Positions 1,484 through 61,993 of a stretch of 62,723 bases of DNA are shown here, in pieces. The notes below the pieces were generated by a model, which saw nothing but the letters and a program-made list of their open reading frames with translations, made no database searches and was not told the origin of the DNA. Each line of letters opens with the position of its first letter. Within the stretch, counting starts at the first letter, position 1. The stretch is from positions 1-62,723 of the forward strand of contig CAMDDA010000002.1 in assembly GCA_945890755.1 (NCBI GenBank), in the 5' to 3' direction. Made by a program: the position numbers and the translations under genes. The stretch comes from Candidatus Kuenenia stuttgartensis. Its GTDB lineage: Bacteria; Planctomycetota; Planctomycetia; Pirellulales; UBA1268.

Positions 1484-2439
1484 TCGCCGGTGCAGCCGGG
1501 GCGGCAGTGGCCGTCGCGGCCGTCGCCTGCCTGCCCGTGCGGTATGTCGTCGAGGGCGTGTCGATGGCGCCCGGGCTCCTGGCCGGGGAGGTCGTGCGGT
1601 CGGGGTGGTTTCCGGCCGGGGATCGCTGGCGGCGGCCGCGGCGGTTCGAACGCTGGGCGGTCGCGGCGACCGATGGCACGGCGATCAAGCGGGTCGTGGG
1701 GCTGCCGGGAGAGCAGCTGGCGCTTCGCGACGGCGACGTCGTGATCGACGGCCGCATGGCGATCAAGGGACCACGGCTGCTTGCGAAACTTGGGCGTGCC
1801 GTCGCTCCCGAAGCGCCGCACAGGGTCACCAGTGGCCTGGATGATGAACTCTGGGCGGCGGCGCCGCAGGAGGTGCTCGACGATTCGGGCGTGGAGGCGG
1901 TTCGGAGTCATGTGCTCCTGCCGGTGCGGGACGTGGGCGTCGCGGCCGTCCTGCGGGTGAAGAAGTTGCCGCGAGACGGCTTCGTCCGCGTACGGGTGCA
2001 GGTGGGATCGCGGCTCGTGCCGTGGCGGCTCACCGCGACCGGCTGGCATGCGATCGTGGCCGGGCGGCTCGACGGGCATCTGGTGGCGGCGGCCTGGCAA
2101 CTCCCTGCTGCTGGCACGTCCAACGAGAGCGTCCGCTGGTGCCTGCCGGCATGTGCACCGGCGCGGTGGCAGGTGGCCGAGCCCTGGTCAGCCAACGGCG
2201 TTGACGAGCCGATGTCGCCGCAACTGGCAATCAGGTGCGAGGCGCCGCACCACGTGGTTGCCCTGGAGCGGGCCTCGGTGTGGCGCGACGTGCTCTACCG
2301 TCTTGGCGCGAACGCCGGCGATTTCTGGTCCCTGGGCGCCGACGAATACTTCGTGCTCGGTGATCACCCGGCCGCGAGCACCGACTCGCGACAGTGGGGC
2401 CCGATCCAACTCGCTCGTCTGCGGCATCGCCTCCCGTAA
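1462..2439 (+). CDS. lepB: signal peptidase I (S26 family)
   Basis: Box B GVSMAPGL (catalytic Ser), box [12 protein letters not shown] (catalytic Lys), box [20 protein letters not shown]. The N-terminus is a basic stretch followed by a TM segment ([22 protein letters not shown]). I chose GTG at 1462, which overlaps the upstream gene by 22 nt; the start is uncertain. Confidence 0.8.
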
Positions 2440-2453
2440 GCCACTTGCGCCCC

Positions 2454-2531
2454 GTAGGCCCGTTGCTTCGCAACGGGCAGTTCCAAGTGCCCGTCACGGA
2501 GTGACGGGCCTACGCCGTGTGACGGGCCTGC
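2454..2531 (-). repeat. REP-A double-hairpin element, reverse orientation, with an extra half unit
   Basis: GTAGGCCCGTTGC-TTC-GCAACGGGC ... GCCCGTCAC-GGA-GTGACGGGCCTAC, then GTGACGGGCCTGCTCACCC. It lies between convergent lepB and the larA-like gene. Confidence 0.9.
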
Positions 2532-3976: not shown

Positions 3977-4369
3977 GTGATCCATCTCCGCCTCGCTTTC
4001 GCCGCGTTCATCATCGCCGCGTGCGGCTTGCCGCTTCGGGAGTCGCTTGCCCAGGAGACGACCATCGTGATGGACGATTCGGGGCCGGCCGCGGGCGATT
4101 GCAACTGCCGCAGCCAGCAGTCGCCCCCATGGCATGGCAACGTCAACGGAATGAGCTGCCCGCCGATGCATCACGGCAACAGGATCTTCCAGGCAAACCC
4201 GAGCGGGCAGCTCGGCATGCTCTGCCCGTGGAACCGCGGCTGTGCCCAGTTGCCCCCATGCTTCCCGCGGCTGCACGGCCTGTGCGCAGATGGGTTCATG
4301 CCGACACCCAGGCCGATCGCGATCCCACGCTGCCACCAGTGCGGTGCGCTGATCGAAGGGGGCTTCTAG
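3977..4369 (+). CDS. small Cys-rich putative lipoprotein, hypothetical
   Basis: GTG at 3977 sits 7 nt after GAGGAG. Signal peptide IHLRLAFAAFIIAAC has a lipobox-like IAAC. The mature part has about 11 Cys plus His/Met/Pro (CNC, CPPMHH, CHQC). Confidence 0.5.
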   Translation: MIHLRLAFAAFIIAACGLPLRESLAQETTIVMDDSGPAAGDCNCRSQQSPPWHGNVNGMSCPPMHHGNRIFQANPSGQLGMLCPWNRGCAQLPPCFPRLHGLCADGFMPTPRPIAIPRCHQCGALIEGGF

Positions 4370-4380
4370 GCCGACCCCCC

Positions 4381-4431
4381 GTAGGCCCGTCACTCCGTGA
4401 CGGGCAGCCCGTTGCGGAGCAACGGGCCTAC
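4381..4431 (+). repeat. REP-A double-hairpin element, canonical 51-nt copy
   Basis: GTAGGCCCGTCACTCCGTGACGGGCAGCCCGTTGCGGAGCAACGGGCCTAC. Its terminal CTA (4428-4430) is the TAG stop of the minus-strand SLC13 gene. Confidence 0.95.
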
Positions 4432-5840
4432 GGAAGGCTCCAGAGGCTCGTGACGGCGAGCACGATCGCGGTGATCACGACGGTGCCGATCACGTCGAGA
4501 ATCGCGCCCGCGGCCATCATCGCCCGCAGCGGAATCCGGCCCGAGCCGTAGACGATCGCGTTGCAAGGCGTGCTCACGGGCATCATGAAGCCGAGGCTCG
4601 CCGCGAACGTCGCCGCCAGCGCCGCCGCGGCCGGCTCGGCCCCTGTAGCCTGTCCCAACGCGATCACGATCGGCACCACCATCGTGGCACTGGCCACGTT
4701 GCTGGTGAACTCGCTCGTGACGACCGCCACGACGGCCGCCACCGCCACGAGCACGGTGCCCGCCCACGGGCCGGTCGGAATCCAGGTGGTGATCCCCTGG
4801 CCGGCAGCCGCAGCCAGCCCCGTCGAGAAGCAGAGTTCGCCGAGCGCGAGCCCCCCGCCGTAGAGCAGCACGATATCCCAGTCGATCCGGGCCTCGCTCC
4901 AGATGACAGCCCGTAGCCTCCGGCCGTCCGCCCGCCGATCGCCCGGCAACAGGAAGAGGAGAATTCCGCCGATGAGCGCCGCCACACCCTCCGGGAGCCT
5001 GTTTCTCAGCCACTGGCTCAGCGGATGATCAGGACCCACGGCCACGAGCACGAACCCGGGCGCCACCCACAGCGTCACCGTGATCGCGAAGGCGACCGCC
5101 GTCGATTTCTGCCCGGTCGTCCAGACGCCGAGCTGCCGACGCTCCGCCCGCACGAACGCCGTCACGCCATCCAGTCGCTCGACGCCGGCTGGGAACAGCC
5201 GGGCAAGTACGGCGACGAGGATCGCGCCGAGGATCGCCACGGTCGGCAGGCTCACGGCGCACCAGCCGGGAAACGACACGGCGATCCCGAGCTGGTCGCG
5301 AATGAATCCCAGGCCGATCAGGTTCGTGGGCGTGCCGATCGGTGTGGCCAGGCCGCCGATCGACGCCGCGAAAGCGATGCAGAGAAACAGCCCGGTCGCG
5401 AAGCCGGATGCCGGCCTCCGCCCCTCCCCGGCCGCCTCCTCGACCGCCGCCAAAATCCCCGACACGATCGCCAGCATCATCGCCGCCGTGACCGTATTGG
5501 AAATGAAGGCGCTGATGACCATCGACACGACGGCCACCGCCGCGAGGATCCGCACCGGCCGCTCCCCCACCCAGGGCCACGCGAGCACGGCGAATGCAAG
5601 CCGTCGGTCGAGCCGATGCAGCCGGATCGCCTCCGCCAGGAGAAACGACCCGATGAACAGAAAGATCAGCGGATCGGCGAACGGCCGAAACACTTCCTTC
5701 GCGGACGCCACGCCACACACCACGCAGGCCACCGCTCCGAGCAGCGCGGTCACCGCCAGCGGCAAGCTCTCGGTGAACCAGAGCACGACGACGACCCCGA
5801 CGATCACCGCCAGCCGCTGCGCTTCAGGGGTCAGGTCCAT
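4428..5840 (-). CDS. SLC13/DASS family divalent-anion:sodium symporter
   Basis: 470-aa polytopic membrane protein. The N-terminus ...LWFTESLPLAVTALLG..., SNT motifs (AFISNTVTAAMM, SEFTSNVASATMVVPI) and an internal repeat are typical of DASS transporters. Confidence 0.8.
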   Translation of the reverse strand: MDLTPEAQRLAVIVGVVVVLWFTESLPLAVTALLGAVACVVCGVASAKEVFRPFADPLIFLFIGSFLLAEAIRLHRLDRRLAFAVLAWPWVGERPVRILAAVAVVSMVISAFISNTVTAAMMLAIVSGILAAVEEAAGEGRRPASGFATGLFLCIAFAASIGGLATPIGTPTNLIGLGFIRDQLGIAVSFPGWCAVSLPTVAILGAILVAVLARLFPAGVERLDGVTAFVRAERRQLGVWTTGQKSTAVAFAITVTLWVAPGFVLVAVGPDHPLSQWLRNRLPEGVAALIGGILLFLLPGDRRADGRRLRAVIWSEARIDWDIVLLYGGGLALGELCFSTGLAAAAGQGITTWIPTGPWAGTVLVAVAAVVAVVTSEFTSNVASATMVVPIVIALGQATGAEPAAAALAATFAASLGFMMPVSTPCNAIVYGSGRIPLRAMMAAGAILDVIGTVVITAIVLAVTSLWSLP

Positions 5841-9929: not shown

Positions 9930-9955
9930 AACGGGGCAGGTAGCCGCTTCTATTC

Positions 9956-10006
9956 GTAGGCCCGTCACTCCGTGACGGGCAGCCCGTTGCGGAGCAACAG
10001 GCCTAC
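9956..10006 (+). repeat. REP-A double-hairpin element
   Basis: 51 nt, one mismatch to the 4381-4431 copy. It lies between convergent genes. Confidence 0.95.
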
Positions 10007-10065
10007 GGGGGCCCCTCATCAGACTCCCGATGGGTTGCCCCGAGCTCTCACCACAAGACGCCCCG

Positions 10066-15651: not shown

Positions 15652-15737
15652 GTAGGCCCGTCACTCCGTGACGGGCTGCCCACCGTAGGCCCGTCACTCC
15701 GTGACGGGCTTTGCCCGTTGCGGAGCAACGGGCCTAC
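15652..15737 (+). repeat. REP-A element, expanded to three hairpins
   Basis: Two copies of GTAGGCCCGTCACTCCGTGACGGGC followed by GCCCGTTGCGGAGCAACGGGCCTAC. It sits in the tsf-pyrH intergenic space of a co-directional operon. Confidence 0.9.
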
Positions 15738-19424: not shown

Positions 19425-19700
19425 ATGACGCCCGAGGAATACCAGGCCCGCAGCCTCTACGAGCAGCTCCAGCCGGGCGACCGGGTGGAGGTGGCGCACG
19501 GCGTGACGGTGGGCTCGAGCGCGAAGTGGAGCACCACGACCGTGGGCAAGGTGCTGCGGACGGAGCGGCGGCGGCATGGTCTCCACTTCCGCCGCAACGC
19601 CGACGACAAGGTCTACAGCGACGTGTTGATCCTCGCCCGCGACGACGGCGAACTCACCACGGTGACGATCGACGAATACACGCGGCTCCGTAAGCTGTAG
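19425..19700 (+). CDS. hypothetical small protein (91 aa)
   Basis: ATG is preceded by GGGAG. GC-rich third positions and balanced composition support coding. The TAG stop lies inside the first GTAGGCC of the following REP-A copy. Confidence 0.55.
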   Translation: MTPEEYQARSLYEQLQPGDRVEVAHGVTVGSSAKWSTTTVGKVLRTERRRHGLHFRRNADDKVYSDVLILARDDGELTTVTIDEYTRLRKL

Positions 19701-19774
19701 GCCCGTTGCTCCGCAACGGGCAAGGCCGCAGCCCGTCACGGCGTGACGGGCCTACGGGGGCATGACGGGCCTAC
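19697..19774 (-). repeat. REP-A element, reverse orientation, with an extra half unit
   Basis: GTAGGCCCGTTGCTCCGCAACGGGC...GCCCGTCACGGCGTGACGGGCCTAC...ATGACGGGCCTAC. The flanking TCACCC carries the stop of the minus-strand gene, as at 2532. Confidence 0.9.
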
Positions 19775-32714: not shown

Positions 32715-33209
32715 ATGCCGAAGCCCGCTTCAGCCACAGCTCAGGCCTCCGCGCCAGCCGCCGAGGCCCGTCGCAGCCGCGTGCTCATCGCCGACGACAA
32801 CGAGCCGAACCGCGAGTTGCTCGAGGTCTATCTGGCCGAAGTCGATTGCACGATCGCCACGGCCGTCGATGGCCGCGATACGCTCGACAAGGTGGCGAGC
32901 TTCGCCCCCGACGTGATTCTGCTCGACGTGATGATGCCGAAGCTGTCGGGTTTCGAGGTCTGCCAGCAGCTGAAGTCGAATCCGGCGACGAGCCGGATCA
33001 TGATCCTGATGGTGACGGCCCTCGGCGAGCTCGGCGACATCGAGCGGGCCGTCGAGGCAGGCACCGACGACTTCCTCTCGAAGCCGGTCAACAAGGTGGA
33101 GCTCGTGAAGCGGGTCGAGAACATGCTCAAGCTCCGCCATGTGAGCGACGAGCTGGAGCGGCTGCGGAGCTACATCCGCACCATGGACGACGACCAGCCG
33201 CCACGATAG
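32715..33209 (+). CDS. single-domain response regulator (REC only)
   Basis: RVLIADDNEPNRELL..., VILLDVMMPKLSGFEV (phospho-accepting Asp), MVTAL, FLSKP. The TAG stop lies in the first TAGGCCC of REP-A. Confidence 0.9.
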   Translation: MPKPASATAQASAPAAEARRSRVLIADDNEPNRELLEVYLAEVDCTIATAVDGRDTLDKVASFAPDVILLDVMMPKLSGFEVCQQLKSNPATSRIMILMVTALGELGDIERAVEAGTDDFLSKPVNKVELVKRVENMLKLRHVSDELERLRSYIRTMDDDQPPR

Positions 33210-33290
33210 GCCCGTCACTCCGTGACGGGCAGCCCTCCCGTAGGCCCGTCACTCCGTGACGGGCAGCCCGTTGCGGAGCAACGGGCCTAC
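33207..33290 (+). repeat. REP-A element, expanded to three hairpins
   Basis: TAGGCCCGTCACTCCGTGACGGGC, a spacer, then the canonical 51-nt copy. It lies between the convergent response regulator and metF. Confidence 0.9.
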
Positions 33291-33310
33291 GTCAGCAGCG
33301 AGCCCTCTCA

Positions 33311-35609: not shown

Positions 35610-35692
35610 GCCGGAGTGGCGGAATGGCAGACGCGGCGGACTCAAAATCCGTTGCCCGCAAGGGCGTGTGGGTTCAAGTCCCACCTCCGGCA
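35610..35692 (+). tRNA. tRNA-Leu (anticodon CAA), type II with a long variable arm
   Basis: Acceptor GCCGGAG/CTCCGGC plus discriminator A. Anticodon stem GCGGA/TCCGT with loop CTCAAAA. T arm GTGGG-TTCAAGT-CCCAC. No CCA is encoded. Confidence 0.93.
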
Positions 35693-36482: not shown

Positions 36483-36568
36483 AATGATGGTCAGGTCAAC
36501 GGCACTTCCTCACCGGTCTTCCGGCCGATGAGCGACTTGTGAGCCTCTTGAGAAGCGGACCGGCGTCC
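36483..36568 (+). repeat. left copy of an 86-nt imperfect direct repeat bracketing the vapBC cassette
   Basis: It aligns base-for-base at offset 925 with 37408-37493. I count about 6 mismatches by eye. Confidence 0.85.
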
Positions 36569-36687
36569 GGAGCGGTTTTCTCGAACCGCCCCGCACCCGG
36601 ATCGGTGGCGTTTTTCTCGCGTCTGCGCAGACCGCGTTTACAGCCAACGGGAGAACAGTCTCTTGCTCTTGACGAGACGCCCCACAT

Positions 36688-36710
36688 AAAGTAGTGTTCA
36701 ACACTACTTT
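36688..36710. promoter_or_regulatory. perfect 23-bp palindrome, likely the antitoxin operator overlapping the vapBC promoter
   Basis: AAAGTAGTGTT-C-AACACTACTTT lies 12 nt upstream of the vapB ATG. TTGACG at 36669-36674 with N17 then TAGTGT, or TTGCTC with N18 then TAAAGT, both overlap it. Confidence 0.5.
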
Positions 36711-36722
36711 TAGCTGGATATC

Positions 36723-36965
36723 ATGCGCATGAAAACAATCTCGGCCGCCGACGCCAACCGGCATTTTTCCCGCGTCCTCCGCGAAGTGTCGCAGGGAGAG
36801 CATGTGACTGTGGTGTCGCGCGGCAGGCCCGTGGCGACCATCGCACCGGTTCGCGGGAGCGGTCGCGAGCGACGGGCGGCGAAACGCATGTTGCTCGAGC
36901 GATTGCGACGACAGCCTGCAGTCGGGGCCCGCAACTGGACCCGTGACGAACTCTACGAGAACTGA
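36723..36965 (+). CDS. type II antitoxin, Phd/YefM (prevent-host-death) family
   Basis: MKTISAADANRHFSRVLREVSQGEHVTVVSRGRPVATI is the typical Phd/YefM N-terminal fold signature. It is followed 2 nt later by a PIN gene. Confidence 0.8.
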   Translation: MRMKTISAADANRHFSRVLREVSQGEHVTVVSRGRPVATIAPVRGSGRERRAAKRMLLERLRRQPAVGARNWTRDELYEN

Positions 36966-36967
36966 CC

Positions 36968-37408
36968 GTGCGGGTCGCCATCGATACCAACGTGCTCGCA
37001 TACGCCGAGGGTGTCGGAGATGCGGAGCGGTGTCGCGTTGCCATCGGCCTCATCGAGCGATTGCCCGAATCGGCCGTCGTGCTGCCGGCGCAGGTGCTTG
37101 GCGAGTTGATGCTGGTCCTCACACGCAAGGCGGGGCGGACTCGCGAGGCTGCCCGCGACGCCGTGCTTGGCTGGGCCGATTCGTTTGACGTCAGCGACTC
37201 GACGTGGGCTTCGTTTCAGTCGGCGTTCGATCTCTCCGTGAACCACGAGTTTCGAATGTGGGACGCCATCGTGATGGCGGTTGCTGCGGAAAATTGCTGC
37301 CGCATCGTGCTCAGCGAGGACCTTCAGCATGGTTTTACATGGCGCGGTGTGACGATCGTCAACCCATTTCTACCGGATGAGTCGCCCCTGCTCGCGGCCA
37401 TTCTCTAA
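36968..37408 (+). CDS. vapC: type II toxin, PIN-domain ribonuclease VapC
   Basis: GTG start. Acidic PIN residues occur in VAIDTNVL, ...GEL..., WDAIVMA and LSEDL. Confidence 0.8.
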   Translation: MRVAIDTNVLAYAEGVGDAERCRVAIGLIERLPESAVVLPAQVLGELMLVLTRKAGRTREAARDAVLGWADSFDVSDSTWASFQSAFDLSVNHEFRMWDAIVMAVAAENCCRIVLSEDLQHGFTWRGVTIVNPFLPDESPLLAAIL

Positions 37409-37493
37409 AGGATGGCCCGGTCAACGGCACTTCCTCGCCGGTCTTCCGGCCGATGAGCGACTCGTGAGCCTCGTGAGAAGCGGACCGGCGTCC
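37408..37493 (+). repeat. right copy of the 86-nt direct repeat bracketing the vapBC cassette
   Basis: See 36483-36568. It begins at the last base of the vapC stop codon. Confidence 0.85.
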
Positions 37494-45157: not shown

Positions 45158-45248
45158 GGAGGCCCGTTGCTCCGCAACGGGCTGCCCGTCACGGAGTGAC
45201 GGGCCTACGGTAGGCAACGGGCTTCCCGTCACGGAGTGACGGGCCTAC
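45158..45248 (-). repeat. REP-A element, reverse orientation, expanded
   Basis: GGCCCGTTGCTCCGCAACGGGC-T-GCCCGTCACGGAGTGACGGGCCTAC, then GTAGGCAACGGGC-TT-CCCGTCACGGAGTGACGGGCCTAC. It lies in a divergent promoter region. Confidence 0.9.
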
Positions 45249-45386
45249 GAGACCGCTGCTCGCCAAACTGCGTATTCTGGTCTGCCTGACCCTGACCTTC
45301 CTCCTGCCTGTAACAGGCGTACCGCGGGGGAGTGATCTGGATGGGGCCGTCCGTATTCCCATCCGTATTCATTGGAGAAGCGTGTC

Positions 45387-52040: not shown

Positions 52041-52216
52041 CACCATGGACGCCGCCCCGGCGTCATGATCCCCCGGCTTGCGCCTGGGGGCTTCCTTGAA
52101 TGCCACATAGAAGCCCTGAGCGCGAGCGAGGGGATCGCAACGCATGATCCCCCGGCTTGCGCCCGGCGGCTTCCTTGAATGTCCGATAGAAGCCCTGAGC
52201 GCGAGCGAGGGGATCC
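52041..52216 (+). repeat. REP-B composite cluster: leader plus two tandem ~79-nt hairpin units
   Basis: CACCATGG... leader, then the unit GATCCCCCGGCTTGCGCCTGGGGGCTTCCTTGAATG.C..ATAGAAGCCCTGAGCGCGAGCGAGGGGATCGCAACGCAT at 52064-52142. A truncated second unit follows at 52143-52216. Confidence 0.9.
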
Positions 52217-54160: not shown

Positions 54161-54163
54161 TGC

Positions 54164-54315
54164 ACCATGGCCGACGCTCCCGCGTCGCGATCCCCCGGCT
54201 TGCGCCTGGGGGCTTCCTTGAATGTCCGATAGAAGCCCTGAGCGCGAGCGAGGGGATCGCAACGCATGATCCCCCGGCTTGCGCCTGGGGGCTTGTATTG
54301 AGGCGAGGGGATCGC
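54164..54315 (+). repeat. REP-B composite cluster, second locus
   Basis: Same CACCATGG... leader, a full unit at 54187-54264, and a second unit with an internal deletion at 54265-54315. Confidence 0.9.
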
Positions 54316-54374: not shown

Positions 54375-56057
<1,683 letters not shown>

Positions 56058-56144
56058 CTCTCATGCCCCCGAGAGCGCGCGAGTGGGTATGCTCTCCACG
56101 CGTGTTCACGCCACGTGACGCACAACCTCTCGGAGAAACCGTTC

Positions 56145-56723
56145 ATGGCGAAGAAGAAGGCGAAGGCGGGCAAGGGGTCGACGGGGCGGATCGTTCTGCG
56201 GACGGGCGAGGCGCTCGTGGAGGACGAGGCCGCATGGAGCGCCGCGGAGCCGGAGGTGGTGATCGGCGAACTCGACGGCCCCGTGGGCTACGCGATCGCC
56301 AATCTCATCGGCGACCAGACGAAGGGGCATTCCCGTGTGTTCGCGATCCTCAATTCCGACGTGCAGGTCCGCCCCGCCACATTGATGGTCAGCAAGGTGA
56401 CGGTGAACAACTCGAAGTACACCAATATCCTCATGGGCACCGTGCAGGCGGCGATCGCCCACGGCGTGCTCGACGCCGTTCGCGCGGGCGACATTCCTGA
56501 GAAGAAGGCCAACGACCTCGGCATCATCGTGTCGGTGTGGCTCGATCCGTCGATCACCGAAGTGGAGTATGACCCCGAGATCCTGTTCCGCACGAATCGC
56601 GAGGCGACGGCCAAGGCGCTCCGTAAGGCGATGAACCACGAGCCGTCGATCAAGTGGCTGCTGGCCAACCAGGCGAAGGTGCCGCACTACTTTCACGACC
56701 TCGCCGTCAAGGGCGAGCTCTGA
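56145..56723 (+). CDS. fae: formaldehyde-activating enzyme (Fae) family protein
   Basis: It aligns by eye to Fae: TGEALVEDE...VVIGELDGP, TLMVSKVTVNN, GTVQAAIAHGVLDAVRAGDIPEKKANDLGIIVSVW. It has a Lys-rich N-terminal extension MAKKKAKAGKG. ATG sits after GGAGAAA. Confidence 0.7.
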   Translation: MAKKKAKAGKGSTGRIVLRTGEALVEDEAAWSAAEPEVVIGELDGPVGYAIANLIGDQTKGHSRVFAILNSDVQVRPATLMVSKVTVNNSKYTNILMGTVQAAIAHGVLDAVRAGDIPEKKANDLGIIVSVWLDPSITEVEYDPEILFRTNREATAKALRKAMNHEPSIKWLLANQAKVPHYFHDLAVKGEL

Positions 56724-56738
56724 CGGGCAGCTCGATCG
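56658..56738 (+). repeat. left copy of the 81-nt direct repeat bracketing the rhuM insertion
   Basis: It contains the last 21 codons and stop of fae, plus the reverse-strand remnant of the apbE 3' end. I count 79/81 identity to 58031-58111 by eye. Confidence 0.9.
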
Positions 56739-58030
56739 CGCTTGGCACCTTCTCTGTTCGTCACGGTCATTCGTTCTTCTTTCGTGCCGGGACCCCCCCG
56801 ATCCGTTTCACCTCGGCCTCGAAGTCGCTCTCGAACTCCTGATCCTGGCGGACGCGAAACGTGTCGTAGTGCTCTTCGGCAAGGCGTTTTGCCACCTCGG
56901 CCGATACCTTTCCGGCATTCGTGAGCACCTCGTATTCGTTGAACTGAAGAAATGTGTCGAGTTTGGCGACCCAATCGGCCATCTTCATCGGGATCTGTCG
57001 AGCAGCCTGGTTCTCGGCGTAGTCGAGGTACATCGCCACGATACGTTCCAGTTCTTTGATTTCGCGCTCGATCAGGTAGTTCTTTGCGACAGCGACGTCG
57101 CTCTTGAGAATCTTGCCTTTGGGCGCATTCTTCCAGGTAGTAAGCCCCATGGAGGGCTTGGACGCATCAGCCCGTTCGGCGACGAGTTCGGCTGCCGTCT
57201 TGCCGGTCACCGCCCAGTGCAGCTTGTTCTGTACAGTCTTGAAAAATGTCTGGGTCGTCACGGCGTGCGCGTCATAGTCGATGCTGCACTGTTCGTAGAT
57301 GTCGGTGATCTTGAGATAGAACCGTCGCTCGCTGGCGCGGATCTCCCGGATCCGCTCGAGTAGTTCGTCGAAGTAGTCCTTACCGAACCGCTTATTGAGC
57401 TTGAGACGTTCGTCGTCCAGCACGAAGCCTTTGATGATGAACTCTCGCAGCGTCTGGGTAGCCCAGATGCGGAACTGCGTGGCCTGCGTGCTGTTGACGC
57501 GATAGCCGACCGAAATGATGGCGTCAAGGTTGTAGAACTCGACCTGGCGCTTGACATCCCGATTGCCCTCCCGCTGAACTCTCCAACTTTTTTGGAGAGT
57601 TGCCTCCGGCGTCAGTTCCCCGGACGCGTACACCTCTTTCAGGTGATAGCTCACTGTGCGAACGTCCACGCCGAAAAGCTCCGCCATTCGTCGCTGGTCG
57701 AGCCAAAATGTTTCCGCTTTGAACAGCACCTCCACCCGCACCGAGTCGTCTGCCGTGCGGTAAAGGATCACATCGGCCGAAGGTGGCTCAGATTCGTTCA
57801 CGTCGCTGTATTCTCTCCGAGCAACTGGCCTGGCAGGCCGGATGACTACGTCGACATTTCGGGAAGGTCCGGCCCGGTCACCTGGATGTTGGCCAGCTGT
57901 ACGGCACCATACCTCAAAACAGCCAAATACTCAACAGGCGTTCACTATCTGCGGTGAACCGGCTCACGACGGACGTTACGAGTAGCCTGCCAGGCTCGGG
58001 CGTGGAAACGGCATGATCGCGACCCGGCCA
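56739..58030. mobile_element. 1.29-kb insertion carrying only rhuM, bounded by an 81-nt target duplication (integrase-less islet)
   Basis: It is flanked by direct repeats that regenerate both convergent gene ends. GC content is visibly lower than the surroundings. Confidence 0.55.
56767..57801 (-). CDS. rhuM: RhuM family virulence/DNA-binding protein
   Basis: DVILYRTADDSVRVEVLFKAETFWLDQRRMAELFGVDVRTVSYHLKEVYASGEL..., AIISVGYRVNSTQATQFRIWAT. GTG start. Confidence 0.85.
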   Translation of the reverse strand: MNESEPPSADVILYRTADDSVRVEVLFKAETFWLDQRRMAELFGVDVRTVSYHLKEVYASGELTPEATLQKSWRVQREGNRDVKRQVEFYNLDAIISVGYRVNSTQATQFRIWATQTLREFIIKGFVLDDERLKLNKRFGKDYFDELLERIREIRASERRFYLKITDIYEQCSIDYDAHAVTTQTFFKTVQNKLHWAVTGKTAAELVAERADASKPSMGLTTWKNAPKGKILKSDVAVAKNYLIEREIKELERIVAMYLDYAENQAARQIPMKMADWVAKLDTFLQFNEYEVLTNAGKVSAEVAKRLAEEHYDTFRVRQDQEFESDFEAEVKRIGGVPARKKNE

Positions 58031-58111
58031 CTGCTGGCCAACCAGGCGAAGGTGCCGCACTACTTCCACGACCTTGCCGTCAAGGGCGAGCTCTGACGGG
58101 CAGCTCGATCG
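58031..58111 (+). repeat. right copy of the 81-nt direct repeat
   Basis: It contains the intact apbE 3' end (minus strand) and a fae 3' remnant. The two mismatches are synonymous in the fae frame (TTT/TTC, CTC/CTT). Confidence 0.9.
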
Positions 58112-58940
58112 TGCCGTCGGGGCCGGGCGGAATGCCGAGCACAAGCGCGGCAACCGCCCAGGCGTCGGCGACGGCACACGATGACGCCCGCACCATGGCG
58201 GACGGGGCCGACGGGCTCACGACCTGTCCCGTCCGCGGATCGATCGGCGACCGTCCGAGGCGGCCCGTCGCTGTTGCCAGCGCGAGGCCATCGGCAAGTT
58301 CGATGACGCGACCGCCCGCGCCGAGGGCCACCCGCCAGGCCGTGCCGTCCGGCCGCCGCCCCCACGCCCGCACCTCGCCCCCCAGCTCGACCAGGTGCGC
58401 CGTCGAGCCGAGCTCGCGGAGCCGATCCCCGATCGCATCGACCCCGTAGCCGGGGCCGATCCCGCTCAAGTCGATCGCGATGCCCGCGACGGTCTTGCGT
58501 AGGGCGGGGGGCGTACTCCGTACTTCGACATACTCCATGCCCACGGCGCGATCGCCCCCCGGCGGCGCAGACGTGATGTCGAACGCCCCGTGCGAATCGG
58601 CATGCACCGTGCGGGCGATCTCCACGACAGCCACGAGATCGTCAGCCACCTCGACCCACTCACCAGCCGTGGCGCGATTGAAGCGGCTGGCGTCGGAATC
58701 GTCCCGCCACGTGTTCAGTGCCCGGTCGAGCCGCGCAAGCACGCCCTCCACCTCCCGGTGCACCTCGCCGATCGCCATGCCTGGAACCCCGCGGGCCAGC
58801 GTCACGCGAAACGTCGTGCCCATCGCCGGGCCGGCGAACGTCGGCAGCCCGTCGGCACTCGCTGAAAAAGGTGCCAGCCACCAAATCTGGGCAAGACAGC
58901 AAACTACCCAGATTTGGTGGCTGGCACCTTTTCTGTTCAT
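58080..58940 (-). CDS. apbE: FAD:protein FMN transferase (ApbE family)
   Basis: MGTTFRVTL..., W..DS..S.FN, AFDIT, GIAIDLSGIGPGYGVD, AVADAWAVAL. ATG at 58940 overlaps the upstream stop (ATGA). The predicted signal peptide is MNRKGASHQIWVVCCLAQIWWLAPFSASA/DG. Confidence 0.85.
   Translation of the reverse strand: MNRKGASHQIWVVCCLAQIWWLAPFSASADGLPTFAGPAMGTTFRVTLARGVPGMAIGEVHREVEGVLARLDRALNTWRDDSDASRFNRATAGEWVEVADDLVAVVEIARTVHADSHGAFDITSAPPGGDRAVGMEYVEVRSTPPALRKTVAGIAIDLSGIGPGYGVDAIGDRLRELGSTAHLVELGGEVRAWGRRPDGTAWRVALGAGGRVIELADGLALATATGRLGRSPIDPRTGQVVSPSAPSAMVRASSCAVADAWAVAALVLGIPPGPDGTIELPVRARP
58866..58932. repeat. 26-bp perfect inverted repeat with a 15-nt loop, inside the apbE signal-peptide codons
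   Basis: AAAAGGTGCCAGCCACCAAATCTGGG (58866-58891) pairs with CCCAGATTTGGTGGCTGGCACCTTTT (58907-58932). Confidence 0.95.
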
Positions 58941-60700
58941 CGGGGCCACCAGTGGACGAGGGCCGCGACGGCGAGGCAGGCCAGCAGCAGATAGTCGCGC
59001 CAGCTGATCCGGTCAGCCTTGCCGTGGAACCGGAGATGATCGAGCAGGGCACCGGTGGGGCAGCCGTGGCGGCAGTAGGCCATCGGCAAGAAGGCACTGG
59101 CCACGAGGCTCACGCCGAAGATCACGAGCGCGGCGACACCGGCCACCGTCGGTAGGTAGCCGTCGAAGGGCTCGATGTCCACGAGTGAGAGCGGCAGATG
59201 GAGCACGGCCGTGAGGATCGCCACCACGAGCAGCGCCCAGGGCAGAGTCGTGAGCCAGGGCCGGAGCCGCTTGGGAATCGTCCGCTTCGGCTTTACAAAC
59301 CGCACGAGCAGCTGCTGCGCCGCGCCGTGGGCGCAGAGATGCGAGCAATAGACATTGCGACGGGTCGTCACCGGCAGCACGACTGCCGCCACCGCGAGAG
59401 CCACCAAGACGACCGCCCCGCGCGGCACGCCGGCCTGGGCCCAGCCCCACACTTGTGCCTGCGAGAGCAGGGCGCCGGCCCCGAAGCCGAGATAGAGGAG
59501 CACGGCAACAGGGAGCGCGAGCCGCCCGAACCACGTGCCGCGCAGCCGCGTGAAGGCCGTCACGATGCCTGCGGCGATCACGCCGAGCGCCCCGAGCCTG
59601 GGCCCATCGAGGCTGCGCAGGATCCCGCTCCAGCCCCCGGCATCCGCCCGCGTGTCGAGCGCGGCCACCTGCTGCCGCGCGGCTAGCACGATCCCGCGAG
59701 CCACCGCCTGGCTCGTCATCGTGGCGCCGCTCACGCCTTCGACGCCCGTGTCGCCGTCGTCGATGCCGGCCACCTGCTCGAACGTCATCCCGCGATACAC
59801 ACCGCGAAACGCCTCGTCGTCGCGAACGTAACCAACGTAGGGCTCGTTGTCGTAGCTGGCGAGCACCGCGACGCCCGCAACTTGTCCCGTAGCGTCAAAG
59901 CCGATCAGCGCATCGGTCGGCCCCTGGTAGCCGATCACGCGATCCGCCGCAGGGCTCGTTCGCATCGCCCAGCCGAGCGGAATCCGCTCGGGGGCATAGA
60001 CGCGGATCACGGCGGGATCACCGGCGTCCGCTTCGATCGCGACCGCCTCAGGAAAGATCCGCTGGAGATCGACCAAAGTGGGGGCCGTCTCAAACCGGCC
60101 GCCACCGGCCGTGCCGCCGAGCCGGAGCGCCAAGGCCTCGGCGATCGCGATGCAGGTGAGCGTCGAGCCGCCCACCGCATCGACCCGGCCTGCATCCCGT
60201 ACGGCCAGCTCATCGAGCGACATGCCGGCGAACGACTTCAGGAACGCCGCATCCTGCTCGATCGCCGCCACATGGTCGCGGGTATCGCGGCTGGCGAGGA
60301 TCTCGACGCCGGCCACCCGAAGGCCGGCATCGCAAACGACGAGCAGGTCGGTCGGCCCCGAGAACCCGATCGCCGCATCACCGGCGGGTGACGTGCGAAA
60401 CATGGCACCGACCCGCTCGCCGGCGGCATCGAGGAGATCGAGGCCACCCGCGATTGCCGGCGACGGGCCGCCGATCGCAGCCGCCGCGGCGAGATGTCGC
60501 TGCACCCGCGAGAGCGGCAGCGAATCAAGCGCGGCGGCCTGCTGCCGCCCCAGAAACGCCCCGTGCTCGGCATGCACGAGCCACACGAGCGCCGCCACGA
60601 CGGCGACGCGGCCGCCGTGCGTGAGGAGACGACGAAAACGAGTGCTGGCGTGCGGCCGCATGCCCCACACTGTACGCGATCGACTGCATCTCGGGGACAT
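58937..60700 (-). CDS. NosR/NirI-like membrane protein: two FMN-binding domains plus a Cys-motif polytopic domain, no C-terminal ferredoxin domain
   Basis: FMN_bind 1 is degenerate (VDAVGGSTLTCIAIAEAL). FMN_bind 2 is canonical (VEGVSGATMTSQAVARGI, the ApbE flavinylation motif). The TM domain carries CSHLCAHG and CRHGCPTG. The start is uncertain: ATG at 60700 or 60661. Confidence 0.7.
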   Translation of the reverse strand: MSPRCSRSRTVWGMRPHASTRFRRLLTHGGRVAVVAALVWLVHAEHGAFLGRQQAAALDSLPLSRVQRHLAAAAAIGGPSPAIAGGLDLLDAAGERVGAMFRTSPAGDAAIGFSGPTDLLVVCDAGLRVAGVEILASRDTRDHVAAIEQDAAFLKSFAGMSLDELAVRDAGRVDAVGGSTLTCIAIAEALALRLGGTAGGGRFETAPTLVDLQRIFPEAVAIEADAGDPAVIRVYAPERIPLGWAMRTSPAADRVIGYQGPTDALIGFDATGQVAGVAVLASYDNEPYVGYVRDDEAFRGVYRGMTFEQVAGIDDGDTGVEGVSGATMTSQAVARGIVLAARQQVAALDTRADAGGWSGILRSLDGPRLGALGVIAAGIVTAFTRLRGTWFGRLALPVAVLLYLGFGAGALLSQAQVWGWAQAGVPRGAVVLVALAVAAVVLPVTTRRNVYCSHLCAHGAAQQLLVRFVKPKRTIPKRLRPWLTTLPWALLVVAILTAVLHLPLSLVDIEPFDGYLPTVAGVAALVIFGVSLVASAFLPMAYCRHGCPTGALLDHLRFHGKADRISWRDYLLLACLAVAALVHWWPR

Positions 60701-60772
60701 GGCAGACGGCCCCTTCGCGTCTGGCGCTGGCACAACTCCGTCTTGCGGACGAACCGCGGACACGTCCAGACT

Positions 60773-61993
60773 TTGCCGCACGTCCGTCACGTCGGAAAGG
60801 AGCCCACCCTGCCGATTATCGTCCGCAACCTGCAGAGCCACTCCACGAATGGCTCGTTCGACTGCACTGCTGCCGTCACGCTCGACGGCGTGGAACGGCC
60901 GCTCACGCTCAGCCGCTACGGTGACCATCCCGAGCTCAGCCGCCGGACCGACACGTACGATCCCTTCGCGGTGGCCTTGCTCGTGCCGGCGATGCTCAGG
61001 GGCGAGCCGCTGGTGATCGAGGGAAGCATCGACGAGATGCTGCTCGACTCACTCCGCGGCCCCGTGCAGCACACGCTGCGGCTGATGGCGCCGGGTTGGC
61101 GACACGTGGCGATCGAAGCAGATGCCCGACCCGCGCCGACCACGACCGACTGGACGCGAGGAGCCGCGATGGCCATGAGCGGGGGCATCGACAGCATGCA
61201 TCTCGCCCGCCACAGGATCCTTGCCCCCGACGTGCCCGAGCCGCTCCAGGTGCGGCTGCTCGTGCATCACCACGTCGGAGCGCATGGCGACGACGACCGG
61301 GTGTTCGAGGAGCAGTTCTCCCATGCCCGGCGCATCGCCGACCGCCTCGGGCTGCCGATCGTGGGCACCCGCTGTTCGCTCACCGCCGCCTTCCGGGGCA
61401 TGAGACACATCCACGCCGTGACCACGCGGAATCTCGCGGCCTCGCTGGCACTCGACCACCTGTTCACCGCGTTTCATTACGCCTCGACCGAGCCGATCGG
61501 CGAGCGGCCCCAGATGAGCGAGATCGGCGGCGCGTCGATCCTCGACGCCACGCTGCTGCCCCTCTTCAATACGACGCGCACGGTGTGGCTCCCCTTCGGT
61601 GGCGATACCACCCGCCTTCGCAAGACGGCCGAAGTGATTTTCGACGACCGGCTGTGCGGCGATCTGCTCGTCTGCATCCGCGGCTTTCGCCGCGACCGTG
61701 CCGCGCTCAACTGCGGACGCTGCTACAAGTGCGCCCGGGTGCTCCTCCAGGCCGAGGCCGACGGCCGCTTCGATGCCGTCGCGGGCACGTTCGACGTGGA
61801 GGGCTATCGCCGCGGCAAATCACACTCGATCCTCAGACTGCTTCGCTGGTCGCTCGGCTTCAGCCGCAATGACAACGAGATCGACCTCGTGAAGCATCTC
61901 CACACCCGCCGGTATCCTTTCCCGGCCTGGGCCCGCCCCGGCGTCGCCCTCACGCTCCTGCTGCACGGCGTGGAAGCCCGAAGCGCAAGCTAA
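60773..61993 (+). CDS. PP-loop (adenine nucleotide alpha-hydrolase superfamily) protein of unknown function, QueC-like C-terminal Cys cluster
   Basis: AMAMSGGIDSMH contains the SGGxDS PP-loop. The C-terminus has LNCGRCYKCARVLL. An N-terminal domain of ~130 aa is unassigned. The start is uncertain: TTG at 60743 or 60773, or CTG at 60809, which sits 6 nt after AAGGAG. Confidence 0.6.
   Translation: MPHVRHVGKEPTLPIIVRNLQSHSTNGSFDCTAAVTLDGVERPLTLSRYGDHPELSRRTDTYDPFAVALLVPAMLRGEPLVIEGSIDEMLLDSLRGPVQHTLRLMAPGWRHVAIEADARPAPTTTDWTRGAAMAMSGGIDSMHLARHRILAPDVPEPLQVRLLVHHHVGAHGDDDRVFEEQFSHARRIADRLGLPIVGTRCSLTAAFRGMRHIHAVTTRNLAASLALDHLFTAFHYASTEPIGERPQMSEIGGASILDATLLPLFNTTRTVWLPFGGDTTRLRKTAEVIFDDRLCGDLLVCIRGFRRDRAALNCGRCYKCARVLLQAEADGRFDAVAGTFDVEGYRRGKSHSILRLLRWSLGFSRNDNEIDLVKHLHTRRYPFPAWARPGVALTLLLHGVEARSAS

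What the first reader, a model, noticed from the sequence alone, without database searches (positions are those of the whole stretch)
56658..58111. rhuM islet inserted into overlapping convergent 3' ends of fae and apbE, with an 81-bp duplication that regenerates both genes
**The duplication.** The 81 nt at 56658-56738 recur at 58031-58111 with 2 mismatches, both synonymous in the fae frame. The segment holds the last 21 codons and TGA of fae on the plus strand. It also holds the last ~10 codons and TGA of apbE on the minus strand. The ancestral genes must therefore have converged with about 17 nt of 3' overlap.

**The insert.** The 1292-bp insert (56739-58030) has visibly lower GC and carries only a RhuM-family gene. 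No integrase, transposase or terminal inverted repeats are present.

**Interpretation.** An 81-bp near-identical duplication is far too long for a transposase target-site duplication. It resembles attL/attR of an integrative element whose attP mimics a gene end. If so, this is a minimal, integrase-less cargo, possibly mobilised in trans.
Basis: seen in the sequence. Interest (0 to 1): 0.65.

Follow-up and report, generated by a model that had tools for sequence, protein, structure and literature searches.

The report
Lone anti-phage gene islet with repeats
A single foreign anti-phage gene (RhuM family) sits exactly where two converging housekeeping genes of a freshwater planctomycete used to overlap, bracketed by an 85-base duplication that gives each gene back its own end; it is a real, recently exchanged insertion, but an ordinary kind of small genomic islet rather than a new type of mobile element.

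Summary
A direct repeat brackets a low-GC insert (0.58 against 0.69) that carries one intact RhuM gene. The repeat has 81 nt with 2 mismatches, and was 85 nt ancestrally.

Three sister lineages (L092, L093/L094, L005) show the empty site. There, fae and apbE converge with a single copy of the segment, and in L092 and L093 the overlap is exactly 17 nt.

The same islet, with the same junctions, occurs in at least three diverged lineages. Its synonymous divergence is far below that of its flanks (rhuM dS 0.009; fae 0.125; apbE 0.31). It was therefore exchanged horizontally and recently.

No integrase or transposase was found in the islet or among the gene-like ORFs scanned across the 62.7-kb window, which is core genome. 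The repeat is not a dispersed repeat.

RhuM matches PADLOC candidate PDC-S05, a single-gene system reported to block phages. Its closest relatives sit inside restriction-modification operons.

Two other solitary RhuM loci lie in integrase-less islands flanked by 3'-end duplications, one of them a tRNA end.

My best reading is an att-flanked, integrase-less remnant of a reciprocal integration, now passed between relatives by homologous recombination. A recombinase-free origin remains a serious rival.

This is a neat case of moderate interest, not a new kind of element.

The parts
56145..56723 (+). fae (formaldehyde-activating enzyme), intact. Its last 21 codons and TGA lie in the left repeat.
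   Evidence: PF08714, E 6e-58. The gene call in L089 gives 192 aa. It is 94-98% identical at the protein level to fae in the empty-site loci.
56658..56742 (.). Left copy of the 85-nt direct repeat. It serves as the working 3' end of fae and carries a dead copy of the apbE 3' end (minus strand, stop at 56707-56709).
   Evidence: In the window, positions 82 and 85 have drifted. L217, L218 and L219 keep the native bases.
56743..56766 (-). 24-nt spacer between the left repeat and the rhuM stop codon. With the stop codon (56743-56769) it resembles the nosR-end/apbE-start junction at 58922-58948 (22 of 27 bases).
   Evidence: The 17-mer occurs only at these two places (0.02 expected). A search of about 1.9 Mb of loci gives equally good chance hits (E about 1). 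This similarity is unexplained.
56767..57801 (-). rhuM: a complete 344-aa RhuM-family protein, matching the PADLOC PDC-S05 candidate single-gene anti-phage defence. It is the only gene of the islet.
   Evidence: PF13310, E 4.5e-114. PDC-S05, E 1e-155. It aligns over full length at 81-88% identity with homologues from several phyla. GC3 is 0.75 against 0.8-0.93 for host genes.
57802..58030 (-). 229-nt non-coding region upstream of rhuM, of unknown origin. It contains an 11-nt inverted pair (57828-57838 and 57985-57995). By eye there is a weak -35/-10 (TTGAGT-17-TATGGT on the minus strand).
   Evidence: It has no homology to any fetched locus outside the islet-bearing ones. The promoter scan at its own threshold found nothing.
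58031..58115 (.). Right copy of the 85-nt repeat. It serves as the working 3' end of apbE (stop at 58080-58082) and carries a dead copy of the fae 3' end (58031-58096).
58080..58949 (-). apbE (FAD:protein FMN transferase family), intact. The database gene call starts at 58940.
   Evidence: PF02424, E 4.7e-41. NCBIfam ApbE hit. Gene call.
58937..60928 (-). NosR/RnfG-like FMN-binding, 4Fe-4S membrane protein upstream of apbE. It provides context and is the likely substrate operon of ApbE.
   Evidence: PF04205 and PF12801. Weak NosR and RnfG NCBIfam hits.

Best explanation
**What it is.** The feature is a minimal genomic islet of 1288 nt of foreign DNA. It carries one defence gene (RhuM, PDC-S05) with its own upstream region. 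It sits at the 17-nt overlap of the convergent genes fae and apbE.

**How the repeats arose (inferred).** The 85-nt repeats are attL/attR-like footprints of a reciprocal, Campbell-type integration. A circular DNA carrying its own copy of the fae/apbE junction recombined with the chromosomal junction. That leaves one full junction copy on each side, so both genes keep a complete 3' end.

**Which enzyme (inferred).** The most likely enzyme was a site-specific, tyrosine-type integrase encoded on a larger parent island or elsewhere, and since lost. That would make this a CIME-like, integrase-less remnant.

**How it moves now (partly shown).** The islet has no mobility function of its own. It passes between related planctomycete lineages as a patch, by ordinary homologous recombination in the conserved fae end and repeats.

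**Status of each step.** Shown: the insertion, the empty site, the duplication, the absence of a recombinase, the foreign composition, and the recent horizontal exchange. Inferred: the circular intermediate, which enzyme acted, and the defence function.

**What the confidence covers.** The stated confidence is for the full reading, including the lost site-specific integrase. The facts listed as shown are close to certain. Reciprocal integration of a junction-bearing circle by any enzyme I put at about 0.6.
For: **Insertion and duplication**
- The repeat and the gene ends are in the sequence as described.
- Empty sites with a single junction copy occur in L005, L092 and L093/L094. The 17-nt overlap is measured in L092 and L093.
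- The insert has foreign composition.

**Horizontal exchange**
- The same islet with the same junctions occurs in L217, L218 and L219, and in runs X1-X10 from several lake studies.
- Window against L217: rhuM dS is 0.009 and the 229-nt upstream region differs by 1.7%. For comparison, fae dS is 0.125 and apbE dS is 0.31.
- By apbE, the window is no closer to L217 (filled) than to L092 (empty).
- The region is a recombination mosaic: lctP dS is 0.007, right next to fae at 0.125.

**No mobility genes**
- No integrase or transposase was found among about 40 ORFs across the window.

**Analogy for an att origin**
- L087 is an integrase-less island carrying RhuM, flanked by a duplicated tRNA-Ala 3' end.
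- L084 is an integrase-less island carrying RhuM, flanked by a 111-nt duplicate of a gene's 3' end.
- In L223, RhuM lies 855 nt from a P4-type integrase.
- The CIME concept is taken from PMC5704250.

**Cargo function**
- A PDC-S05 / RhuM-domain gene is reported to cut the plating of T7 and T5 about 1000-fold (bioRxiv 10.1101/2024.09.26.614923).
- RhuM is predicted to be a toxin domain of R-M loci (PMC3710099).
Against: - No integrase, integrase remnant or larger parent island was found. The variant in L218, X8 and X10 that first looked larger is in fact a derived deletion of apbE and nosR.
- The fae 3' end shows no second copy or recurrent integrase neighbour in 72-82 other fae loci.
- Both repeat copies share the lineage's own GGCC variant, where L092 and L093 have GGCG. 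The element-borne copy was therefore not from a distant host.
- Between the window and L217 there are no differences for 51 nt left of the left repeat and 15 nt right of the right repeat. About 4 would be expected in total; my rough combined estimate from expected difference counts is p about 0.02. This fits flanking homologous recombination better than repeat-limited site-specific exchange.
- The circular form and excision were not observable, because only assembled contigs of the runs were available.
- The 27-nt similarity of the islet's left end to the apbE start is not explained by this model.
Confidence: 0.45

Rival explanations
1. **Recombinase-free origin.** The gene arrived as naked or transduced DNA and was inserted by the host's general machinery. 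Two routes are possible:
- RecA-mediated single crossover of a circle that happened to carry junction homology.
- Homology-facilitated illegitimate recombination anchored in fae.

Only products that duplicated the 17-nt overlap survived, because any simple insertion would truncate fae or apbE. Later spread was by double homologous recombination in the flanks.
For: - No recombinase is present anywhere in the window.
- The locus is a recombination mosaic.
- The exchanged patch seems to exceed the repeats.
- Both repeat copies carry the host lineage's own variant.
- Many hotspots lack mobility genes and turn over by flanking homologous recombination (PMC5635113).
- The fae 3' end can duplicate on its own: L019 has three perfect tandem copies of a 49-nt unit.
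Against: - Insertions with an 85-bp duplication made by general recombination or repair are rare. From general knowledge, the usual outcome is deletion or replacement.
- This route needs either a pre-existing circle with homology or an illegitimate joint that happens to fall upstream of the anchor.
- The analogous RhuM islets at a tRNA end (L087) and at a gene end (L084) look integrase-made.
Confidence: 0.3
2. **Larger original duplication.** The incoming circle, or a tandem duplication, carried the whole apbE gene plus the fae end (58031-58948, about 0.9 kb) together with rhuM. Integration by homologous recombination produced two apbE copies. The redundant left copy then lost about 806 nt internally. 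What remains is the 85-nt repeat plus a 27-nt scrap of the apbE start directly beside it.
For: - 56743-56769 matches 58922-58948 at 22 of 27 bases.
- The match begins exactly where the repeat ends, and it ends at the apbE start codon.
- The 17-mer core is unique to these two places in 62.7 kb, with 0.02 expected.
Against: - The scrap is 19% diverged, while the repeat is 2-5% diverged. The two therefore cannot be the same age unless the donor apbE came from another lineage.
- Equally good 17-nt matches arise by chance in 1.9 Mb of other loci (E about 1).
- No lineage with a longer remnant was found.
Confidence: 0.12
3. **Not a real insertion.** The feature is an assembly artefact, a copy of a dispersed repeat family, or an ancestral fae-rhuM-apbE arrangement that was lost in relatives.
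For: - The contig comes from a metagenome assembly.
- This genome does hold dispersed repeats.
Against: - The same structure was assembled independently in several studies and lineages. The two copies carry different private mismatches.
- The segment is single-copy coding sequence in all relatives.
- rhuM has foreign GC content, and its dS is 14-34 times lower than that of its neighbours.
Confidence: 0.02

Closest known systems
CIMEs (cis-mobilizable elements): integrase-less remnants of ICEs or IMEs that keep attL and attR at the 3' end of a target gene (reviewed in PMC5704250)
   Same: - It is flanked by direct repeats that duplicate and regenerate the 3' end of the target gene.
- It has no integration or transfer genes.
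- It is small and carries cargo only.
- It shows presence/absence polymorphism with a clean empty site.
   Different: - No cognate ICE, IME or integrase is known for this site.
- No accretion or tandem partner is seen.
- att function is untested.
- The repeat regenerates two overlapping convergent genes at once.
- The observed spread fits homologous recombination.
Integrase-free hotspots of gene turnover between core genes, exchanged by homologous recombination in the flanks (PMC5635113; core defence hotspots in PMC10250203)
   Same: - A defence gene lies between conserved core genes.
- No mobility-associated proteins are present.
- The flanks show mosaic divergence.
- The islet is much younger than the host split.
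   Different: - Only one cargo (or none) is seen at this spot, not a varied repertoire.
- The flanking 85-nt duplication is not a feature of that model.
RhuM-family proteins: Salmonella SPI-3 RhuM, the RhuM-like genes embedded in R-M operons (PMC3710099), and PADLOC PDC-S05
   Same: - Full-length PF13310 and PDC-S05 matches.
- 81-88% identity to homologues that sit between hsdS-side genes and hsdR.
   Different: - Here the gene is solitary, with its own 229-nt upstream region.
- No R-M, Fic or PrrC partner lies nearby.
Genomic islands that integrate into tRNA or protein-gene 3' ends and carry a replacement end in attP
   Same: - The repeat covers the last 21 codons of the target gene plus downstream bases.
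- The target reading frames are preserved.
   Different: - There is no integrase.
- The island is only 1.3 kb.
- The element-borne copy is nearly identical to the host's own lineage-specific sequence.

Membership tests
RhuM family / PADLOC PDC-S05 | Pfam PF13310 match above the gathering score | tested here: met
   380 bits against a cut-off of 33.7, covering profile positions 2-250 of 252.
RhuM family / PADLOC PDC-S05 | Match to the PDC-S05 models over full length | tested here: met
   E 1e-155 to 1e-135 against several PDC-S05 models, residues about 5-334.
RhuM family / PADLOC PDC-S05 | Confers phage resistance | not testable with these tools
   The only support is a published test of another PDC-S05 representative.
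CIME-like integrase-less att-flanked element | Direct repeats at both ends that duplicate the 3' end of the target gene | tested here: met
   85-nt repeat holding the fae and apbE 3' ends.
CIME-like integrase-less att-flanked element | No integrase, excisionase or transfer genes inside | tested here: met
   RhuM is the only ORF with a family match. Nothing of this kind was found among the gene-like ORFs scanned across the window.
CIME-like integrase-less att-flanked element | Empty site with a single att-like copy in relatives | tested here: met
   L005, L092 and L093/L094.
CIME-like integrase-less att-flanked element | Derived from, or mobilised by, a related integrase-bearing element that uses the same site | tested here: inconclusive
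   None was found. The L218/X8/X10 variant is a deletion, not a parent. No recurrent integrase was seen next to fae in 72 loci. Only one genome per species and ±6 kb were examined.
CIME-like integrase-less att-flanked element | Repeats recombine site-specifically (excised circle and restored junction) | not testable with these tools
   Only assembled contigs of the runs were available, and no joints were seen.
Transposon or insertion sequence | Transposase gene, terminal inverted repeats and a short (2-15 bp) target duplication | tested here: not met
   No transposase, no terminal inverted repeats, and an 85-nt duplication.
Xer-dependent element (IMEX / dif module) | Flanking dif-like 28-bp sites at the replication terminus | tested here: not met
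   No GC-skew switch across the window. The repeat is GC-rich coding sequence with no dif-like core.
Homologous-recombination hotspot islet | Core-gene flanks, no mobility proteins, and a recombination signal in the flanks | tested here: met
   Housekeeping neighbours. Mosaic dS of 0.007, 0.125, 0.009 and 0.31 along lctP, fae, rhuM and apbE.
Homologous-recombination hotspot islet | Different cargoes at the same spot in different strains | tested here: not met
   Only rhuM or an empty site was seen in the clade.
R-M-embedded RhuM | Located within an hsd or other R-M operon | tested here: not met
   The neighbours are fae and apbE. Relatives P0002, P0017 and P0086 are embedded in such operons.

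The most novel reading that the evidence does not exclude
Solitary RhuM genes may travel as a distinct class of minimal, integrase-less elements. Each would consist of one defence gene plus a portable copy of a host gene's 3' end.

Such elements would integrate and excise either through host recombination functions or through an activity of RhuM itself. They would leave 40-110-nt duplications at tRNA or gene ends.

Three such loci were seen here: the window, L084 and L087.
Probability: 0.06. Interest if true: 0.8.

Novelty: new member of a known kind. Interest (0 to 1): 0.38.

Why it matters
- **A clean natural example.** A single-gene anti-phage system is lifted out of a restriction-modification context. 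It is parked in core genome without damaging two overlapping genes, then shared among related species.
- **A useful test case.** The empty and filled sites and the sequence of the junctions are all in hand. That allows a direct test of whether integrase-less, repeat-flanked defence islets move by a borrowed integrase or by RecA alone.
- **A caution for annotation.** Overlapping convergent gene ends can be silently duplicated, leaving dead gene fragments beside live genes.
- **Limits.** It does not reveal a new mechanism by itself.

Tried and rejected
- **Transposon target duplication.** Rejected: there is no transposase and no terminal inverted repeat, and the repeat is 85 nt.
- **Xer/dif element at the terminus.** Rejected: there is no GC-skew switch and no dif-like core.
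- **Dispersed repeat.** Rejected for this repeat. It does hold for a look-alike repeat pair of 83-86 nt around a Phd/PIN toxin-antitoxin pair at 36483/37408. Those repeat segments have 10-40 times the depth of their neighbours in metagenome contigs. I first took that pair for a second example and then dropped it.
- **A larger parent island in runs X8 and X10.** Rejected: locus L218 shows a derived deletion that joins 57971 to 60601, with scraps of apbE and nosR.
- **The swapped T at repeat position 36.** It lies in the left copy in the window and in the right copy in L217. It looked like evidence for variable crossover points. By my estimate, a coincidence of two C-to-T changes among about 57 G/C sites has p about 0.18, so I give it no weight.
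- **Flanking repeats in 91 RhuM loci.** Only the window, L084 and L087 have gene-end or tRNA-end duplications. The repeats in L199 and L150, and the 101-nt repeat in L084, are terminator or REP-like.
- **Structure prediction of RhuM.** It failed (mean pLDDT 44 with a shallow alignment), so no fold search was run. There was no PDB sequence match.
- **Origin of the 229-nt upstream region and the spacer.** No homology was found anywhere.
- **Reads for an empty site or a circle in the same species.** Only assembled contigs could be laid, and no joints were seen.
- **Calls that did not complete.** One context look-up failed.
- **A wasted search.** The first literature search on 'RhuM' returned only unrelated papers.
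Full report
**1.

Reading 56300-58500 and the repeat finder show a direct repeat at 56658 and 58031. It has 81 nt with 2 mismatches, or 84 nt with 3. A 35-mer from it occurs at only these two places in 62.7 kb, and never in 100 shuffles.

ORF listing and Pfam give the following order:
- lctP (+)
- fae (+, ending with TGA at 56721-23)
- a RhuM-family ORF (-, 56767-57801; PF13310, E 4.5e-114)
- apbE (-, stop at 58080-82)
- a NosR/RnfG-like gene (-)

Each repeat copy therefore holds the last 21 codons and stop of fae, and about the last 10 codons and stop of apbE on the other strand.

The insert has GC 0.576 against 0.69 on both sides. Its GC3 is 0.75 against 0.8-0.93 for host genes.

**2. Empty sites exist**

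A genome-collection scan with Fae and a metagenome scan with ApbE found relatives with the same neighbourhood and no insert:
- L005 (a Pirellulales MAG)
- L092
- L093/L094

In the alignment each has one copy of the segment. In L092 and L093 the fae and apbE stop codons overlap by exactly 17 nt. This is an insertion.

**3. The repeat was 85 nt, and the islet is shared by several lineages**

The 90% protein cluster of this RhuM has six members, and all those recovered sit at the fae site.
- L217 has the full structure, with both repeat copies 85 nt long and 2 mismatches.
- L218 and L219 have a left copy identical over 85 nt to the native sequence.

In the window, positions 82 and 85 of the left copy have drifted. 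The ancestral duplication is 56658-56742 and 58031-58115, and the insert is 56743-58030.

Logan contigs of ten lake and freshwater runs from several studies hold the filled form.

The variant in X8, X10 and L218 that leaves the window sequence at 57971 is not a bigger parent island. It joins to 60601 with 23-nt and 32-nt scraps of apbE and nosR between. It is therefore a later loss of apbE and nosR.

**4. The islet is much younger than its hosts**

Comparison of the window with L217:

| Segment | Divergence |
|---|---|
| rhuM | 2 differences in 1035 nt (dS 0.009) |
| 229-nt upstream region | 1.7% |
| fae | dS 0.125 |
| apbE | dS 0.31 (13.5% of bases) |

Against L218 and L219, rhuM dS is about 0.02, while fae dS is 0.125 (L218) and 0.28 (L219).

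By apbE, the window is no closer to L217 (filled) than to L092 (empty), and L217 and L092 are 84% identical. The islet has therefore passed between lineages recently.

The whole region is a mosaic. lctP is 99.8% identical between the window and L217 (dS 0.007), right beside the diverged fae. Homologous exchange is therefore frequent here.

The window-L217 near-identity runs from about 56607 to about 58130. That is roughly 51 nt and 15 nt beyond the two repeats. This is weak evidence, p about 0.02 by my own rough estimate from expected difference counts. It suggests that the last transfer used flanking homology rather than a crossover confined to the repeats.

**5. No mobility genes**

Pfam scans of about 40 gene-like ORFs across the window found only housekeeping and planctomycete-typical families. 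Examples are S2, EF-Ts, RRF, IlvN/C, PPDK, MTHFR, PSCyt, PSD1 and DUF1501. One toxin-antitoxin pair was also found (and the precomputed list).

Other checks were also negative:
- The only tRNA is Leu at 35610.
- Rfam finds nothing else.
- There is no GC-skew switch, so this is not a terminus or dif site.
- The islet has no terminal inverted repeats.

**6. The cargo**

The protein is full length and 81-88% identical to thousands of homologues from Planctomycetota, Acidobacteriota, Myxococcota and others.

The closest homologues with context sit inside type I or other R-M operons, with overlapping stop and start codons. DNA similarity to them is confined to the coding region, 56799-57770.

It matches PADLOC PDC-S05. 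A PDC-S05 gene with a RhuM domain was reported to reduce plating of T7 and T5 about 1000-fold. RhuM was earlier predicted to be a toxin domain of R-M loci.

There is no PDB sequence relative. My structure model was too poor to use.

**7. How did the duplication arise?**

Direct evidence is lacking, so I rely on comparison. I screened 91 RhuM loci for repeats that bracket the gene. Two loci besides the window stand out.
- **L087 (Myxococcota).** A 4.6-kb island carries RhuM, an XPB-like helicase and DUF790, and has no integrase. It is flanked by a roughly 40-nt duplicate of the 3' end of tRNA-Ala plus downstream bases. This is the classic signature of integrase-made islands.
- **L084 (Acidobacteriota).** A 4.6-kb island carries an unknown gene, two Fic genes and RhuM, and has no integrase. 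It is flanked by a 111-nt, 91% identical duplicate of the last 37 codons of an AAA_14/DUF4143 gene.

In L223, RhuM lies 855 nt from a P4-type integrase.

Outside R-M operons, RhuM is therefore typically cargo of island-type elements, and integrase-less repeat-flanked remnants recur. This favours the reading that the 85-nt repeats are attL/attR-like products of a reciprocal integration, by an integrase no longer present. In the sense of PMC5704250 it would be CIME-like.

Several points count against that reading:
- No integrase remnant and no parent island were found.
- No other use of the fae end was seen in 72-82 fae loci.
- Both copies share the lineage's own GGCC variant.
- The locus has a clear record of homologous exchange.

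A recombinase-free origin therefore stays a serious rival. It could be a RecA crossover of a circle with homology, or homology-facilitated illegitimate recombination. Selection would keep only products that duplicate the overlap.

L019 shows that the fae end can duplicate by itself, with three perfect tandem 49-nt units.

**8. An unexplained detail**

The 27 nt that follow the left repeat (56743-56769) resemble the nosR-stop/apbE-start junction (58922-58948) at 22 of 27 positions. The similarity starts exactly where the repeat ends.

This would fit an originally larger duplication of about 0.9 kb, covering the whole of apbE, that later lost its middle. However, the similarity is statistically marginal and more diverged than the repeat. 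I list this as a minor rival.

**9. Verdict**

The insertion model passes its own test.

The att-site reading is plausible but unproven. Spread by homologous recombination is the only movement for which there is direct sequence evidence.

It is a new member of a known kind: a small integrase-less genomic islet carrying a defence gene. Its attractive twist is that one duplication regenerates two overlapping convergent genes.

Noticed in passing
window 58866-58932 (and L217, reverse complement 4508-4574): - A perfect palindrome with 26-bp arms and a 15-nt loop lies inside the 5' end of apbE. It encodes the hydrophobic, Cys-containing signal-peptide region.
- It is conserved in L092 and L093, with a compensatory change in both arms in L093. 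It is absent from L005.
- A second copy sits in L217 at a site that is empty in the window (about 51621).
- It therefore looks like a mobile MITE/REP-like hairpin co-opted as coding sequence.
   Followed up: partly
window 36483-37493: - A Phd/YefM antitoxin (36723-36965) and a PIN toxin (36968-37408) are bracketed by an 83-86-nt direct repeat (36483-36568 and 37408-37493, 93% identical).
- The pair lies about 0.8 kb from tRNA-Leu(caa) at 35610-35692.
- In metagenome contigs the repeat segments have 10-40 times the depth of their neighbours. The repeat is therefore a dispersed high-copy element, not a target duplication.
   Followed up: partly
window 2439-2514, 4369-4432, 9955-10008, 15653-15737, 19697-19770, 33207-33291, 45160-45262; also 52041-52172 / 54163-54294: - A family of 50-85-nt intergenic repeats occurs in both orientations.
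- A 132-nt repeat, containing hairpins such as CCCCCGGCTTGCGCCTGGGGG, lies on either side of the beta-helix gene.
   Followed up: no
L019 6555-6690: In another planctomycete MAG, the last 11 codons and stop of fae, plus 13 nt, form a 49-nt unit present in three perfect tandem copies.
   Followed up: no
L087 3338-8078 and L084 424-5203: Two further integrase-less islands carry RhuM and are flanked by duplicated 3' ends.
- L087: tRNA-Ala, about 40 nt.
- L084: an AAA_14/DUF4143 gene, 111 nt at 91% identity.

The 267-aa ORF at the left edge of the L084 island has no Pfam match.
   Followed up: partly
L218 (whole), L001 3338-3700, L097-L099: The nosR-apbE pair is dispensable and the junction is plastic.
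- L218 (with rhuM) and L001 (without rhuM) have lost both genes and keep only scraps.
- In L097-L099, apbE converges directly on lctP with no fae between them.
   Followed up: partly
window 54375-58823 against L217: There is sharp mosaic divergence between two lineages: lctP dS 0.007, fae 0.125, rhuM 0.009, apbE 0.31. This indicates frequent homologous exchange in short patches.
   Followed up: partly
window 56743-56769 against 58922-58948: The spacer between the left repeat and the rhuM stop resembles the nosR-stop/apbE-start junction at 22 of 27 positions. The similarity begins exactly at the end of the repeat. It is unexplained.
   Followed up: partly
L218 / L219 rhuM: In the lineage that lost apbE and nosR, rhuM shows 8-9 non-synonymous against 4 synonymous differences from the window copy. 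The called product is shorter (312-322 aa; the L219 copy starts at the contig end). The gene may be decaying there.
   Followed up: no
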